This document shows positions 49,701 through 55,700 of a DNA stretch of 64,000 nt, piece by piece (the stretch's first letter is position 1; every line of letters starts with the position of its first letter). The DNA lies in assembly GCF_053078305.1 (NCBI RefSeq), contig NZ_CP166879.1; one strand, 5' to 3'. Made by a program: the position numbers.

Positions 49701-52700
49701 GCTGACAGTGAGGTTATCGATGGTCAGGTTGCGCATGACCCGTTTGTTTTTGCCGCCGATATAAATCTGCGTTACCGGGCCAAAGCCGCTCATCGCCAGA
49801 CCTTTGATGGTGCAGTCAGAGCCGCGCACATCCAGGGTGATGTTATGCATACTGCCGCCCTCCTCCCCTGTCACCTGGCTGCCGTCCTGTAAGACAAATC
49901 GCCCTCTGCCGTTGCCGCGCAGGCTTCCAAGGATGTGTAACATTTTGCCAGGAGGAATGAAGATGCCGGTGTTGATATTGTCACAAACCAATCCGGCAGG
50001 CACGACGACCGTATGCCCTTCGCTGAAGGCTTGTTTAAATGAGGCGATCCAGTCGTGTGGGTTGTAGTCGTTAATGTTAACGCTTTGTCGGGCGGGAAGT
50101 GCGCGAGCGAAAGGGGTATGGAGGAAGGCAAGCGCCGAGCTTGCCGTCAGGAAGGTGCGTCGGGAGAGTGTTTTAAATGGCATACGTTCTCCTCTATAAA
50201 GCCTGCAGCAAGCTGGCGAGTTCTCGATTAATCACCTGCTGGTTAAAATCGTGTTCGACTTTTTCGCGCGCACGTTTGACGACCGGAGCCAGTTCGTCGG
50301 TGTCCAGTTGACTAAACGCCGCCAGACGTTGTGCCAGTGCGCGAGCATCGTTCTCAGGCACCAGCCAGCCGGATTTATCGGCCTCCACCAGTTCCGGTAT
50401 TCCGCTATGTAGAGTAGAAACAACCGGAATGCCGACCGCCATCGCTTCCATCAGCGCCACCGGAATGCCTTCCATATCGCCGTCCGCACCTGTAACCGAT
50501 GGCAAGAGGAAGACATCCGCATCGTCGAGCATCGCTTTCACTTCATGGCTCGGTTTAAAGCCCGGCATCTCCACCACATCTTCCAGTTGATATTGTTCGA
50601 TGAGCGTGCGCAGGCGTCGTTCCCACGGGCCAATGCCGAGGATGCGATAGCGAAATGCCACGCCCTGCTCTTTCAACTGCCGGCAGGCTTCAATCGCCAC
50701 ATGCAGGCCTTTTTTCTCGGTTAAGCGTGCGACGGAGATGATTTCCAGCGGCGTTGCGGGCGCTTTCACCGGACGCGGGCTAAAACGCGTCATGTCCACG
50801 CCCATGCGCGATACGGCGATTTTTTCCCTCGGGCAGCCCATTTTTTGCAGCCTTCCGGCCCACAGATCGCTTATTGGTAACATCAGGTCGCCACGGCGAA
50901 ACAGTTGTTGATATTCGGGAGTGTAGTGGTTGAGCACTTCCCGACTGGAGATATCAATACCGTGAAAGATAGTGGCAATTTTGCCGCGAATGACCCCCAG
51001 TTCGCGTAGTTTTGCTGCGGTTACCCCCGCAGGGCCAAAATGAGCGATAAAGACATCGGCATAAAATGGTGTTGCGACCTGGCCGCAAATGGCAGACAAA
51101 ATCAGGTTTCGCGACTCAGCACCATAGCGTTTGAGGTTAAGTGCCTGCCAGGTATTTTTACGATGAATGCCGCGTAAGGTCTGACTGGCTCGGTGGCGCA
51201 GTTTCGCCACTTTGCCCGTAGGTTCGTCCTGTAACCAGCGGGTTCTGGCGGCAAGGTTGTATTTCGTCCATGCCGCGTGGGTGTTTTGTGTGTCGCCTTT
51301 TTGCAGCGCGACAATCTCCACCTCAAAGCCCATATCAATAAACGCAGTGATTTGGTTAAGAACGAAGGTTTCCGACGACAGCGGAAATTTCAATAAGAAG
51401 AAGCCGACCTTCATTTCACCTCCCCGATGCGTTCCAGTACGGACTGCACCATCTGCATTCCCGTCTGACGCTCACGACTGACGGCTTCGCTAAGTCGTGC
51501 GTTCAGCGCCGGAAGCAGGCCTAAGGTATCCGCAACCATCGCTTGCAGGCTGCCGTCCAGTAAATGACGGATATCAATCGCCATCTCTGGCAGCCCCAGT
51601 TGTTGCATAATCCCGGCGGATTTATGTTCGTAGTTGATGGCAATTGCCGGAGTAGCAAAATTCATCGAGATAATGGCGGAGTGCAGGCGCGTACCGACGG
51701 TGAGTTCACAGGCACCGAGAATTTTGCCCATTTCCAGATCGTTGAGTTCATCCATCACCACGTGGTAACGGGCAGGATCGCTGATATGCTGGCGAAGATT
51801 GAGCGCCACCATGCGGTCGTCTTTGTTATAGCTGTCTATGCCCGTACAGGTGGAGAGCGCAATGACCTGATAGCCTTCGTCGAGAATGCGATTGACCACC
51901 CCGGCAAAGGCTTTTTCATACGCATGTTGAGTGGTGCCGAGACGTTTGTCGAACGGTGCCAGTTCGCGCAGGGTAATTGCCACCGTTTTCTGTTGTGCGG
52001 CAACGTCCAGCCAGTGTTGAACGGCATAGCTGGCAGTGAAGTCTTCGGTGTGGTGATCGACCAGCCACGCAGTATCGACGCCATGTTCCACTTTTGCAGT
52101 GGTGATATTGCTGCGTTTCATCAGTTCAAGGCTGACCGATTCGCGCAGGATCAGCGCGTCGCAGTGACCAAAAACGTAGTTCGCCAGTTGGTTAAATTGC
52201 TCATCCTGGAAGGGGCCGACGCTGTGACCAATCATAAACAGCGGCTTTTTCGCCATAAACGTGCAAAGCGCATGTTCAAACTGCGGCACGCCGTAGAGAT
52301 CGACAAAAAACGATCCGCCGACCTGGATAATGGCGTCGTAACCTGACAGCAGGCGCACGAAGTCGGTGAATCCCTGGGCGATGGCGATATTGCGCAGCTT
52401 GCCAGTGTCGGTGACGCGTGAGAGCAATACCTGGTGCTGATAGCGGCGACGGAGGACTTTTTTAACGCGCCCGACAACGCCCGCCGCGCTGTTGTGTTGT
52501 TTCATTTGAAGGAACAGCGGATCACCCATTACCGGGCGGTTGAGCAGCCAGGAAGAACTGACCGGATAGCGGCTCATCACGTCCACTTCGGCATGTGGAT
52601 TGAGGATGTTGATGGCATCAAGTAAGCCGCGCAGGATGGCGCTGTCGCCACGATTGCCGCAAGTGTGGTTGCCCAGAATAAGTAATTTCATTTTTTCCTC

Positions 52701-55700
52701 ATAAATTTGATGCCAGGTGAGGCTGTGTTTGTTGTGTTCGTTGCCGTTTTTTGCCTGATGCGACGCTGGCGCGTCTTATCAGGCCTACAAGACCCGAGCA
52801 CAGAACCGTAGGCCGGATAAGGCGTTCACGCCGCATCCGGCATTCAGTGCCTGATGCGACGCTGACGCGTCTTATCAGGCCTACAGGTCCCGAGCACAGA
52901 ACCGTAGGATGGATAAGGCGTTTTACGCTGCACCCGGCAACCGTTGTCGGAACCGAAAACAACAACTCACCCCGCCCGTAAAAGCATTTTCATTTTTTCG
53001 CTGCGACAAAACTGGCGCTTCACTTCCACCACCAGCGGATGGCGCGACAGCACAATCATCACCACAAACGCCAGCACGCCCGCGGCTATTTGCACCGCCA
53101 GCAGCATCCCCAGCGCCAGTTGCCCTTTCAGCACAATGCCCAGCGCATAACTGACCACCAGCGTCGGCAGCGAGAGATAAAACGGCAGCCACAAACTCAG
53201 GATGTACTGGCGATAACTGGAACCGAGCACCGGTTTAATCATCACGAAGTAACTCAGAATGGTGTTGATAATCTGCACCAGCAGGAAACCGAGCGTGACG
53301 CCGATTGCGCCCGCCATCTGCCCACCAATAACAATCGCCGGAATAAACAGAAATGTTTTGAATACGTTGAATTTAAAGCTGATATCGACCCGCGCTTTCG
53401 CCATCAGCAGCGAACCAATCGGGTTACCTACGGAGCGCAGCAGACCCACCACACACAGCAATTGCAGCACCGGAATAATGCTGTTCCACTTTTCGCCAAA
53501 TACCAGCGGTACAAAGTTATTTGACACCACCATCAGCCCGAGCAGCGCCGGAAAGTTGATAATCCCCACCACCGACAGCAGCTTGTAGAAGTTGACGCGC
53601 AGCTTTTCGGTATCGTCCTGAATTTTGGCGAATGCCGGAAACAACACACGGGTGATGATCGGGTTCAGCTTCATCGGCGGCACAACGGCCACGTTGTACG
53701 CCAGGTTGTATCCCCCTGCCACGCCCGCGCCGAGAATACGCGCCAGCACCAGCGTTGAAAGGTTGGTATTGAGATAGTTGATGATGCTGTCCGCCGTCAG
53801 CCAGGCACCAAAGCGTAAGTTCGGCGCAACAGACGCCAGCGAGAAATGCAGACCGGGGCGATAAATTTTGCGGCCAAAGTAGCCAAACAGCAGCGTTCTC
53901 ACCGCACTATTGACCAGATAACCGAGGATCGCGGTCATCGCCAGCGGCCAGAAATGGGCGCTAACCACCGTAAAAGTGAAGCCCGCCAGTACCGCGCTGG
54001 TTTCGATCATGCCGATTTTGTTGAACTCCAGCTCCTTTTGCATCAACGCGCGGAACTGTTGCCCGTGGGGGATAACCACAAACGCCAGCGACAATGTTTT
54101 AATCAACGGTGCCAGGTCCGGGTTGTTCAGCACGTCACCAATGAGATCACTCAACAAAAACACCGCCACGCACACCACAAGCCCCAGCCCAACGTTCAGC
54201 CAGTACAGCGTGGTGAGTTCAAGGTGGCTGATTTCTTTTCGCTGAATAATCGAGTTAGCAATACCGAAGTCAGAAAGCGTATCTGCCAGCGCGATGATCA
54301 CCAGCGACACGGTAAGCAAACCGAACTGGTGGTTGTCGATAATCCGCGCCAGCACGGTCATCTGCACCAGCCCGAGGCCGATGATGATCACCGTGGCAAT
54401 CGCCGACCACTTCGCGCCGCTGATGGTTTTTTCACGTAAGCTCATATCAATATGCCGCTTTGTTAACGAATCCTTTGAATACCGTCAGGAAAACGATTTT
54501 GATATCGAACCAGACGCTCCATTCGCGGATGTACTCAAGGTCGAACTCGACGCGTTTTTCCATTTTCTCCAGCGTGTCGGTTTCGCCGCGCCAGCCGTTA
54601 ATCTGCGCCCAGCCGGTAATGCCCGGTTTCACCTTATGACGCAGCATGTAGCCTTCAATGAGCTGTCGATACTGTTCGTTATGCGCCACCGCGTGCGGAC
54701 GTGGACCGACAATCGACATCCCCCCGGTCAGCACATTGATAAACTGCGGCAATTCATCCAGCGAGGTGCGGCGCAGAAAGTTCCCCACTTTGGTGACGCG
54801 CGGATCGTTCTGCGTCGCCTGGGTCACCACTTTGTCGTTCTCCATCACTTTCATGGAACGGAACTTCCACACTTTGATCGGCTTGCCATCCATGCCGTAG
54901 CGAGTCTGGCGGAAAATAACCGGCCCAGGTGAACTGAGTTTCACCGCCAGCGCAATGCAGCACAGCACCGGGGAGATCAGCAGCAGGATAAGCGTCGCCA
55001 GCACAATGTCTTCCGCACGTTTTAGCAGGCGGTTAACCCCGGAAAGCGGCGTATCGTAAAGCGGCACCACCGGAACGCCGTTCATCTCTTCGAGACGTGA
55101 ATGGAGAATGTTGAAGGTAAAGACATCGGGGATCAGCAGCACCGAACAGGTGGTGTCCGCCAATTGATGGACCAGTTTTTTCACTCGCGCGCCGTCGCAC
55201 ATTTGCATCGCGATATAGACGTTATGAATCTTTCCCGCTTTTGCATCCTCGACCAGCTGTTGCAAGTTACCCGCCCAGTCGTTAGAAACGCCGCCCGGTT
55301 TCGGGTCGTGGTATATACCCACCACTTCAAACCCTAACCACGGCTGATTACGGAAGCTCTCCATCAGCATTTGTCCGGCGGCTAAATCCCCCGCCACCGC
55401 GACCATGCGCTTGTTATAGCCATGATTACGCAGCCAGCCCGCCCCAATGCGAATACACGAACGGCAAACCACCAGTCCGATGCTGGTCAGCCCATACCAC
55501 GCCAGCCAGATTTTCAGTTGCGTGTCGAAATCATTGTTGAACGCCACCAGTCCGGCGCTGAAAATCACGCTTAAGGTCCAGTTTTGTAGCAACAGGGCAA
55601 ATTCTGTCGCTGCCCGAACACCGCGCCATGAGCGATAAAAATCGGTGATGCCACCCAGCATCTGGAATACCACCAGCGTAATCAGCGCCACCAACAGGTG

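What the first reader, a model, noticed from the sequence alone, without database searches (positions are those of the whole stretch)
52692..52966. BIME/REP cluster inside the wca operon
Four REP units in alternating orientation sit between wcaK and wzxC, and further REP copies lie between cpsG and cpsB (57355..57452, overlapping the cpsB stop) and upstream of hisL (21802..21902). These may act as mRNA stabilisers or DNA gyrase/IHF sites and are recombination-prone.
Basis: partly seen in the sequence, partly recalled or inferred. Interest (0 to 1): 0.2.

Follow-up and report, generated by a model that had tools for sequence, protein, structure and literature searches.

The report
Known BIME-2 repeat cluster in wca
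The 275-bp gap between the colanic-acid genes wzxC and wcaK holds an ordinary, already published E. coli BIME-2 array of four REP palindromes, and its copy number runs from 0 to 12 among E. coli strains.

Summary
Window 52692-52966 is the wzxC-wcaK spacer (both genes on the minus strand). It holds four REP units in alternating orientation: Z2 52753-52788, Y 52808-52841, Z2 52849-52884, and a decayed Y 52904-52938, with a 96-bp period. That makes it a BIME-2. The cpsB-cpsG spacer holds one Z2-Y pair plus a half REP touching the cpsB stop. The site upstream of hisL is a BIME-1 (Z1 + long linker + Y).

Iguchi et al. 2011 (PMC3158064) already described REPs, REP indels and similarity junctions at these same sites.

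- In 59 evenly sampled E. coli genomes the spacer has 0, 1, 2, 4 (the commonest), 6, 8, 10 or 12 REPs. One allele carries a BoxC-like element instead, and one strain has IS1397 inside a Y REP.
- In other Enterobacteriaceae the spacer is usually 13-35 nt. The longer spacers hold REP, BoxC-like, ERIC-like or plain hairpins.
- The array sits in the loop of a hairpin that covers the wzxC stop codon.

The likely effect is a tolerated, expandable palindromic repeat that puts stable hairpins into the operon mRNA and probably offers gyrase sites. No site-specific function is shown. Interest is low.

The parts
52692..52966 (-). wzxC-wcaK intercistronic spacer (275 bp). It is transcribed as part of the wca operon mRNA and contains the BIME-2 array.
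   Evidence: ORFs. RefSeq annotations of homologous loci.
52753..52788 (+). REP unit 1, type Z2 (GCCTGATGCGACGCTGGCGCGTCTTATCAGGCCTAC)
   Evidence: 0 edits from the Z2 consensus. RNA hairpin -21.9 kcal/mol, z -4.7.
52789..52807 (.). 19-nt linker between the CTAC/GTAG ends of units 1 and 2 (AAGACCCGAGCACAGAACC)
   Evidence: Read from the sequence. Repeated at 52885-52903 with 2 differences.
52808..52841 (-). REP unit 2, type Y (GTAGGCCGGATAAGGCGTTCACGCCGCATCCGGC on the + strand)
   Evidence: 0 edits from the Y consensus. Hairpin -21.3 kcal/mol, z -4.0.
52842..52848 (.). 7-nt short linker between the GCC ends of units 2 and 3 (ATTCAGT)
   Evidence: Read from the sequence. It lies inside the Rfam naRNA4 (Y-linker-Z2) match at 52811-52881.
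52849..52884 (+). REP unit 3, type Z2
   Evidence: 1 edit. Hairpin -22.8 kcal/mol, z -4.6.
52885..52903 (.). Second 19-nt linker (AGGTCCCGAGCACAGAACC)
52904..52938 (-). REP unit 4, type Y, decayed. It is the first unit met in the mRNA and starts 28 nt after the wzxC stop.
   Evidence: 6 edits from the Y consensus. The hairpin is only -8.6 kcal/mol, z +0.6. The K-12 copy has 3 edits.
52954..52975 (-). 5' arm (in the mRNA) of a long-range stem that encloses the whole array. It includes the wzxC stop codon at 52967-52969.
   Evidence: Pairs with 52712-52740 in the minimum-energy fold. In the REP-free allele of strain E89 the two arms form one local hairpin, -29.5 kcal/mol, z -4.35.
52712..52740 (-). 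3' arm of the enclosing stem, upstream of the wcaK ribosome-binding site
57356..57391 (+). Z2 REP in the cpsB-cpsG spacer
   Evidence: 1 edit. Hairpin -21.9 kcal/mol. Part of an 88-bp unit that K-12 lacks.
57403..57436 (-). Y REP in the cpsB-cpsG spacer
   Evidence: 2 edits. Hairpin -21.1 kcal/mol.
57445..57457 (+). Half REP (GCCTGATGCGACG) abutting the cpsB stop codon (57458-57460). K-12 also has it, as the only REP remnant at that site.
   Evidence: It is predicted to pair with the adjacent Y unit in a structure that starts at the stop codon.
21803..21899 (.). BIME-1 upstream of hisL: Z1 (21803-21831, +), a 34-nt linker with the IHF-like core CATCAATATATTG (21837-21849), and Y (21866-21899, -)

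Best explanation
[quoted passage not shown] It lies in the untranslated gap between wzxC and wcaK of the E. coli colanic-acid (wca) operon.

Shown here:
- It belongs to the genome-wide REP family.
- It sits in the apical part of a hairpin that brackets the wzxC stop codon.
- Whole Z2-Y units are gained and lost, giving 0 to 12 REPs among strains.
- It is an IS1397 target, and a recombination-tract edge falls at or near it.
- Related genera lack it and usually have a spacer of 13-35 nt.

Inferred:
- It spread and expands as a selfish or tolerated repeat. The likely routes are TnpA-REP/RAYT activity, slippage, or unequal recombination between units.
- It persists because this is the one junction in this part of the operon that is not translationally coupled.
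- When the operon is transcribed, three of the four units fold into hairpins of about -21 to -23 kcal/mol. These should slow 3'-to-5' exonucleases and so favour wzxC-proximal mRNA over wcaKLM. They may also attenuate read-through slightly.
- On DNA, the Y units are likely gyrase cleavage sites, as in other BIME-2.

The wide copy-number range argues against any dosage-critical role specific to this site.
For: Identity:
- Unit classification and coordinates come, and the 96-bp direct repeat.
- The BIME-2 definition (z2 + y, tandem, short linker) is in PMC3333891.
- The Rfam naRNA4 model, built from Y-linker-Z2 units of REP325, scores 79.7 bits against a gathering score of 59.5 at 52811-52881.
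- The query containing the array matches a median of 37 places per E. coli genome.

The same REP sites and indels are already described in PMC3158064.

Copy number, from 59 evenly spaced genomes out of 4641 with both flanks:
- 71-72 bp: 6 genomes
- 145 bp: 1
- 161 bp: 4
- 179 bp: 6
- 274-275 bp: 18
- 371 bp: 9
- 466-468 bp: 5
- 563-566 bp: 5
- 660-663 bp: 5
REP counts for 0, 1, 2, 4, 6, 8, 10 and 12 were verified in fetched loci.

Other variation:
- IS1397 sits in a Y loop in strain BH100.
- K-12 lacks an 88-bp Z2-Y unit at cpsB-cpsG, bounded by a direct repeat of GCCTGATGCGACG.

Across genera:
- The wzxC-wcaK spacer has a median of 30 nt, and 42 of 74 species have 35 nt or less.
- wcaJ-wzxC has a median of 9 nt, wcaK-wcaL -4 nt, and wcaL-wcaM 12 nt. 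These rarely reach 40 nt (1/38, 0/62, 2/29, against 17/42 for wzxC-wcaK).

RNA structure:
- The whole spacer folds at -137.6 kcal/mol, z -8.3.
- No sigma-70-like promoter or intrinsic terminator was found.

Gyrase cleavage is enriched in BIME-2 and prefers y REPs (PMC6379681).
Against: - Nothing here measures RNA stability, read-through, gyrase binding or transposase action at this copy.
- The unit next to wzxC has decayed and folds no better than shuffled sequence.
- Alleles with 0 REPs, or with a different repeat, are common. Any effect on the operon is therefore dispensable.
- The strain sample is 59 rows, not a census, and was not corrected for phylogeny or sampling bias.
- The Y, Z1 and Z2 consensus strings used for typing were recalled from memory of the Bachellier/Gilson literature, although two units match them exactly.
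Confidence: 0.85

Rival explanations
1. The array is a selected intercistronic regulator. A hairpin block after wzxC sets the expression ratio between the upstream genes (wza to wzxC) and the last three genes (wcaK, wcaL, wcaM), by acting as a decay barrier, a read-through attenuator, or both.
For: - Some kind of palindrome recurs at exactly this junction in many genera: REP in Citrobacter and Salmonella arizonae, BoxC-like elements in Kosakonia, Phytobacter, Lelliottia and Pluralibacter, an ERIC-like element in RIT691, and plain hairpins in Cedecea.
- Neighbouring junctions almost never carry one.
- The REP-free E. coli allele E89 still has a strong hairpin over the wzxC stop, z -4.35.
- The spacer RNA is very structured, z -8.3.
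- REP stabiliser and attenuator roles are documented for the family (cited).
Against: - 42 of 74 species have a spacer too short for any hairpin.
- E. coli tolerates 0 to 12 REPs, a BoxC-like replacement and a 1.3-kb IS.
- The second REP-free allele, CU39ES-1, has only a weak hairpin, z -1.4.
- A loose junction alone would explain the accumulation of insertions.
Confidence: 0.2
2. The array encodes a naRNA4-like nucleoid-associated RNA, or is a DNA cruciform site, that works with HU to connect distant REP loci.
For: - The Rfam naRNA4 model matches over its full length above its gathering score (79.7 against 59.5) at 52811-52881 on the + strand.
- naRNA4 is itself a Y-linker-Z2 unit of a BIME-2 array, and other REP loci took part in the 3C contacts (PMC4550694).
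Against: - The above-threshold match is antisense to the wca operon. The transcribed strand scores 55.4, below threshold.
- No promoter-like site was found on either strand.
- The model matches because it describes generic REP units, so the match says nothing about expression or HU binding.
- REP-free alleles are common.
Confidence: 0.05
3. The main biological consequence is recombinational. The array acts as a preferred end-point or initiation site for the homologous exchanges that shuffle the his, O-antigen and wca region between lineages.
For: - Window against O157:H7: 13-26 differences per 500 bp to the left of the array, 0-3 per 500 bp across 53000-54999, then about 16 again from 55000. 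One edge of a tract of about 2.1 kb therefore falls at or near the array.
- Iguchi et al. saw similarity junctions in this same spacer in other strains.
Against: - The junction is resolved only to within about 350 bp. There are just 2 differences in 52351-52691, so the edge could lie inside wcaK.
- This is one pairwise comparison.
- The other edge of the tract, near 55020 inside wcaJ, has no REP.
- Iguchi et al. themselves found only a few such cases.
Confidence: 0.2

Closest known systems
BIME-2 arrays of E. coli, for example REP325 between yjdM and yjdN and the sucC-sucB and tldD-yhdP BIME-2
   Same: Alternating z2 and y REPs, a short linker, tandem units, variable unit number between strains, and an intergenic position inside or at the end of operons.
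   Different: Nothing essential. This copy has two units against six in REP325. Its wzxC-proximal Y unit has decayed. Gyrase cleavage and HU/naRNA activity have not been shown for it.
REP sequences flanking the O-antigen cluster, described by Iguchi et al. 2011 (PMC3158064)
   Same: The same loci (yeeZ-hisL, wcaK-wzxC, cpsG-cpsB), the same kind of REP-containing indels, and the same coincidence with similarity junctions.
   Different: That study compared six O157 strains.
BIME-1 / RIB-RIP elements (IHF-binding REP pairs)
   Same: The hisL-upstream element has z1 + long linker + y in a single copy, with an IHF-like core in the linker (and the definition).
   Different: The focal wcaK-wzxC array is not of this type. 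It has no z1, no long linker and no IHF-like core.
REP stabilisers of the malE-malF type, and REPs within 15 nt of a stop codon that reduce translation
   Same: Co-transcribed intercistronic REP hairpins. The cpsB-proximal structure starts right at the stop codon, so it falls in the '15 nt or less' class summarised in PMC12306157.
   Different: The first REP after wzxC starts 28 nt past the stop and is decayed, so the stop-proximal rule does not apply to the REPs themselves. Only the outer enclosing stem covers the wzxC stop. No functional data exist for either site.

Membership tests
REP (palindromic unit) | Imperfect palindrome of 30-40 nt that can fold into a hairpin with an internal mismatch | tested here: met
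   Units are 34-36 nt. Three of the four fold at -21 to -23 kcal/mol with an internal loop, z about -4 to -4.7. The fourth is decayed.
REP (palindromic unit) | Conserved GTAG tetranucleotide at the foot of the palindrome | tested here: met
   All four units end in ...CCTAC or begin with GTAGG... on the + strand. The feature is defined.
REP (palindromic unit) | Extragenic location and high copy number in the genome | tested here: met
   The array lies between annotated CDSs. A query containing it hits a median of 37 places per genome in 5425 of 5426 E. coli genomes, with the 40-piece limit often reached.
BIME-2 | Made of z2 and y REPs in inverse orientation | tested here: met
   Order is Z2(+), Y(-), Z2(+), Y(-). 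The consensus strings were recalled from the literature, and two units match them exactly.
BIME-2 | Multiple tandem copies with a short linker, and copy number that varies between strains | tested here: met
   Two units with a 96-bp period and a 7-nt linker. Other strains have 0 to 6 units.
BIME-2 | Bound and cleaved by DNA gyrase in vivo | not testable with these tools
   This is a family-level result. The stored supplement text of that paper does not mention wcaK or wzxC.
BIME-1 | z1 + y pair, single copy, long conserved linker with an IHF site | tested here: not met
   The focal array has no Z1 unit, no long linker and no IHF-like core with one mismatch or fewer. The hisL element does meet the z1 + linker + y layout, but its IHF core has one mismatch and the consensus is not significantly enriched (96 found against 78 expected).
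naRNA4 (Rfam RF02564) | Covariance-model score at or above the gathering score on the transcribed strand | tested here: not met
   The + strand (antisense to wca) scores 79.7, above the 59.5 threshold. The wca-sense strand scores 55.4, below it.
naRNA4 (Rfam RF02564) | Expressed RNA that binds HU and condenses DNA | not testable with these tools
   Shown only for REP325.
Intrinsic terminator | GC-rich hairpin followed by a run of T | tested here: not met
   No terminator-like site on either strand in 52300-53300.

The most novel reading that the evidence does not exclude
The wzxC-wcaK junction may be a convergent landing pad. A hairpin that covers the wzxC stop codon would be the ancestral feature, and unrelated palindromic repeat families (REP/BIME-2, a BoxC-like element, an ERIC-like element, and lineage-specific hairpins) would have repeatedly inserted into it or replaced it across Enterobacteriaceae. 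The proposed reason is selection for an RNA structure that uncouples expression of the late genes wcaKLM from the rest of the colanic-acid operon. REP copy number would then act as a fast-evolving tuning knob.
Probability: 0.12. Interest if true: 0.35.

Novelty: already known. Interest (0 to 1): 0.1.

Why it matters
It matters little beyond annotation.

- The element should be labelled as a BIME-2 repeat region. The 88-aa and 76-aa ORFs that run through it should not be called genes.
- The Rfam naRNA4 match should not be read as an sRNA gene.
- The 96-bp copy-number ladder (0 to 12 REPs) is a simple length polymorphism. It could serve as a typing marker.
- The ladder also offers natural alleles for testing whether intercistronic REP number changes mRNA decay or read-through in a long, RfaH-dependent polysaccharide operon.
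- The coincidence with a recombination-tract edge adds one more case to the published suggestion that REPs mark exchange junctions around the O-antigen locus.

Tried and rejected
- A fuzzy-regex scan with BESTMATCH skipped the weaker units. I replaced it with an edit-distance scan.
- The K-12 MG1655 RefSeq record in this collection shows only CDS features here, so no curated REP annotation could be read.
- The stored supplement text of the gyrase Topo-seq paper has no entry for wcaK, wzxC or cpsG.
- I guessed a PMC id from memory for the original K-12 colanic-acid cluster paper (Stevenson 1996). The library holds no paper under that id.
- Promoter and terminator scans found nothing in 52300-53300. 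An internal promoter or intrinsic terminator in the array is therefore not supported.
- The IHF consensus scan is uninformative at window scale: 96 matches against 78 expected.
- I rejected reading the array as a small-protein gene or as an sRNA gene. The ORFs are by-products of the repeat, and no RefSeq genome annotates anything there. The naRNA4 model simply recognises REP pairs.
- I rejected chance palindromes: 0 matches are expected by shuffling.
- I could not settle whether REP-free alleles are ancestral or precise deletions. The array is flanked by an imperfect 8-bp direct repeat, CGTTGCCG and CGTTGTCG, which fits either view.

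
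Full report
**What is there**

The window is an E. coli his / O-antigen / wca region. wcaK is the ORF at 51411-52691 and wzxC the ORF at 52967-54445, both on the minus strand. RefSeq annotations of homologous loci agree. The reported interval 52692-52966 is exactly the 275-bp spacer between them. K-12 MG1655 has a spacer of the same length and differs at only a few positions.

The spacer contains four REP units in alternating orientation:
- Z2(+) 52753-52788
- Y(-) 52808-52841
- Z2(+) 52849-52884
- Y(-) 52904-52938

Two of them match my recalled Z2 and Y consensus strings with no edits. The third has one edit and the fourth has six. Each Z2-Y pair with its linkers is a 96-bp direct repeat, 93% identical over 75 nt. 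The linkers are 19 nt at the CTAC/GTAG ends and 7 nt at the GCC ends. A degenerate REP consensus finds three matches in the window against 0.00 expected from shuffles.

**The two other sites**

- Between cpsG and cpsB there is one Z2 (57356-57391) and one Y (57403-57436). A 13-nt half REP (57445-57457) ends directly against the cpsB stop codon at 57458-57460.
- K-12 lacks exactly the 88-bp Z2-Y unit at this site and keeps only the half REP. The indel is bounded by a direct repeat of GCCTGATGCGACG.
- Upstream of hisL there is a shorter Z1 unit (21803-21831) and a Y unit (21866-21899), separated by a 34-nt linker. The linker contains CATCAATATATTG, one mismatch from the IHF core consensus.

An edit-distance scan of the whole window finds only these eight full units. 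That is the genome-average density: 584 REPs in K-12 would predict about 8 per 64 kb.

**Classification**

Ton-Hoang et al. (PMC3333891) define the two types:
- BIME-1: z1 + y, single copy, with a long linker that often carries an IHF site.
- BIME-2: z2 + y in multiple tandem copies with a short linker, with copy number varying between strains.

The wcaK-wzxC and cpsG-cpsB elements are therefore BIME-2, and the hisL element is BIME-1.

The Rfam search supports this independently. The naRNA4 model scores 79.7 bits, against a gathering score of 59.5, at 52811-52881. That model is built from the 77-nt Y-linker-Z2 units of the BIME-2 array REP325 (PMC4550694). The above-threshold match is on the + strand, antisense to the wca operon. 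The sense strand scores 55.4. The hit recognises a REP pair and is not evidence of an sRNA gene.

**Prior knowledge**

Iguchi et al. 2011 (PMC3158064) already reported several points from six O157 strains:
- REP-containing indels at wcaK-wzxC and cpsG-cpsB.
- A change in sequence similarity within the wcaK-wzxC spacer.

The finding is therefore already known.

**Strain comparison**

I searched E. coli complete genomes with a query made only of the two coding flanks (300 nt each) and read the spacer length from 59 evenly spaced rows of the 4641 genomes that matched.

| Spacer length (bp) | Genomes |
|---|---|
| 71-72 | 6 |
| 145 | 1 |
| 161 | 4 |
| 179 | 6 |
| 274-275 | 18 |
| 371 | 9 |
| 466-468 | 5 |
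| 563-566 | 5 |
| 660-663 | 5 |

Fetching representatives and scanning them gave these REP counts:

| REPs | Strain |
|---|---|
| 0 | E89, CU39ES-1 |
| 1 (plus a fragment) | UTAK-12 |
| 2 | O157:H7 |
| 4 | K-12 and this window |
| 6 | HCP5S3_I4 |
| 8 | ST131 |
| 10 | IAL7252 |
| 12 | THO-010 |

All arrays keep strict Z2/Y alternation and a ladder of about 96 bp.

The 161-bp allele (BL21(DE3), SCU-122) has no REP. It carries a BoxC-like palindrome, CCCCTCGCCCCCTGGGGAGAGGGTTAGGGTGAGGGG. The name BoxC comes from memory.

Strain BH100 carries an annotated IS1397 inserted in the loop of a Y unit. That matches the known REP specificity of this IS (PMC1525189).

This is a sample, not a census, and it was not corrected for phylogeny.

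**Anatomy of the insertion site**

- In the REP-free E89 allele the 71-bp spacer is a hairpin. GTTGTTGTTTTCG pairs with CGAAAACAACAAC, extended by GGTGA pairing with TCACC. The fold is -29.5 kcal/mol, z -4.35, and includes the wzxC UGA.
- In the window the same two arms (52954-52975 and 52712-52740) pair over a long range and enclose the whole array. The BIME therefore lies in the former loop.
- The array is flanked by an imperfect 8-bp direct repeat, CGTTGCCG and CGTTGTCG. That fits either insertion or precise deletion, and I could not decide which.
- A second REP-free allele, CU39ES-1, has only a weak hairpin, z -1.4.

**Other genera**

A DNA-pattern scan for the WcaK N-terminal motif returned 120 loci. 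In 74 of them wzxC lies directly upstream of wcaK.
- The spacer median is 30 nt, and 42 species have 35 nt or less.
- Longer spacers hold genus-specific REP pairs (Citrobacter amalonaticus, Citrobacter sp. Awk 4).
- Single REP-like units occur in Salmonella arizonae and other Citrobacter.
- BoxC-like elements occur in Phytobacter, Kosakonia, Lelliottia, Pluralibacter, Buttiauxella and Pseudenterobacter.
- An ERIC-like element occurs in RIT691.
- Plain hairpins occur in Cedecea and Enterobacter sp. Ag1.

As a control I measured the neighbouring junctions in the same loci.

| Junction | Median spacer (nt) | Spacers of 40 nt or more |
|---|---|---|
| wcaJ-wzxC | 9 | 1 of 38 |
| wzxC-wcaK | 32 | 17 of 42 |
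| wcaK-wcaL | -4 | 0 of 62 |
| wcaL-wcaM | 12 | 2 of 29 |

The wzxC-wcaK junction is thus the loose junction in this part of the operon, and it collects palindromic elements of several families. This is the only mildly non-obvious result. Simple tolerance at an uncoupled junction explains it. Selection for a hairpin is possible but unproven.

**RNA and DNA properties**

- The operon-sense spacer RNA folds at -137.6 kcal/mol, z -8.3.
- Units 1 to 3 fold on their own at -21 to -23 kcal/mol, z about -4 to -4.7. The unit nearest wzxC is decayed: -8.6 kcal/mol, z +0.6.
- No sigma-70-like promoter or intrinsic terminator is present.
- The first REP starts 28 nt after the wzxC stop. That is outside the '15 nt or less from the stop' class reported to lower translation (summarised in PMC12306157).
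- At cpsB, the half REP pairs with the adjacent Y unit in a predicted structure that begins at the stop codon, so that site does fall in the class.
- Gyrase cleavage is enriched in BIME-2 and prefers y units (PMC6379681). I found no data for this copy.
- IHF is not expected here.

**Recombination**

Against O157:H7 strain Wll001, the window differs as follows:
- 13-26 positions per 500 bp from 49000 to the array
- 0-3 positions per 500 bp across 53000-54999
- about 16 positions per 500 bp from 55000

One edge of a near-identical tract of about 2.1 kb therefore falls at or within about 350 bp of the array. The other edge, inside wcaJ, has no REP. This agrees with Iguchi et al. but is a single comparison.

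**Verdict**

The element is an ordinary, already published BIME-2. Its most likely nature is a tolerated, expandable palindromic repeat. Its hairpins probably slow 3'-to-5' decay of the upstream mRNA, and its Y units probably attract gyrase. Its copy number has no evident locus-specific importance. Interest is low.

Noticed in passing
window 55896-57265 (-), deletion near 56995: cpsG (phosphomannomutase) has a 1-nt deletion relative to K-12 (GGATGGCGGC becomes GGATGCGGC). All the best E. coli hits are also one base longer (1712 against 1711). The frame shifts after codon 90 and stops near codon 107, before the TASHNP active-site region. This is either a private pseudogene or a sequencing error.
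   Followed up: partly
window 57270-57319 (-): The Rfam algC RNA motif (RF02929) matches at 77.3 bits against a gathering score of 33.8. It lies in the cpsG 5' UTR, just downstream in the mRNA of the cpsB-cpsG BIME. K-12 also has it, although K-12 lacks the Z2-Y unit.
   Followed up: no
window 57267-57457, compared with K-12 (L001 10981-11084): The cpsB-cpsG spacer is 191 bp here and 104 bp in K-12. The difference is one exact 88-bp Z2-Y unit bounded by a direct repeat of GCCTGATGCGACG. Other genomes match with a span 88 bp longer (1800 against 1712), consistent with one more such unit; their REPs were not counted.
   Followed up: partly
window about 52940-55020, compared with L134 (O157:H7 Wll001): wzxC and the 3' part of wcaJ are nearly identical to O157:H7 (4 differences in about 2.1 kb), while both sides differ by about 3-5%. 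This is a short recombination tract, and its left edge is at or near the BIME.
   Followed up: partly
L007 1293-1453 (BL21(DE3)) and L130 400-560 (SCU-122): An alternative 161-bp allele of the wcaK-wzxC spacer has no REP. It carries a BoxC-like palindrome (CCCCTCGCCCCCTGGGGAGAGGGTTAGGGTGAGGGG). About 4 of the 59 sampled genomes have a spacer of this length.
   Followed up: partly
L009 3058-4405 (strain BH100): An IS1397 with a frameshifted transposase is inserted in the loop of a Y REP of the wcaK-wzxC array. The insertion separates wzxC from wcaK by 1.9 kb.
   Followed up: partly
L006 1293-1363 (strain E89): The REP-free 71-bp spacer is itself a strong hairpin, -29.5 kcal/mol, z -4.35, that includes the wzxC stop codon. 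In REP-bearing alleles the BIME occupies its loop.
   Followed up: yes
window 52699-52965 (-) and 52751-52981 (+): Mechanical ORFs of 88 and 76 aa run through the REP array. None of the RefSeq genomes inspected annotates a gene there, so they are almost certainly artefacts of the repeat.
   Followed up: partly
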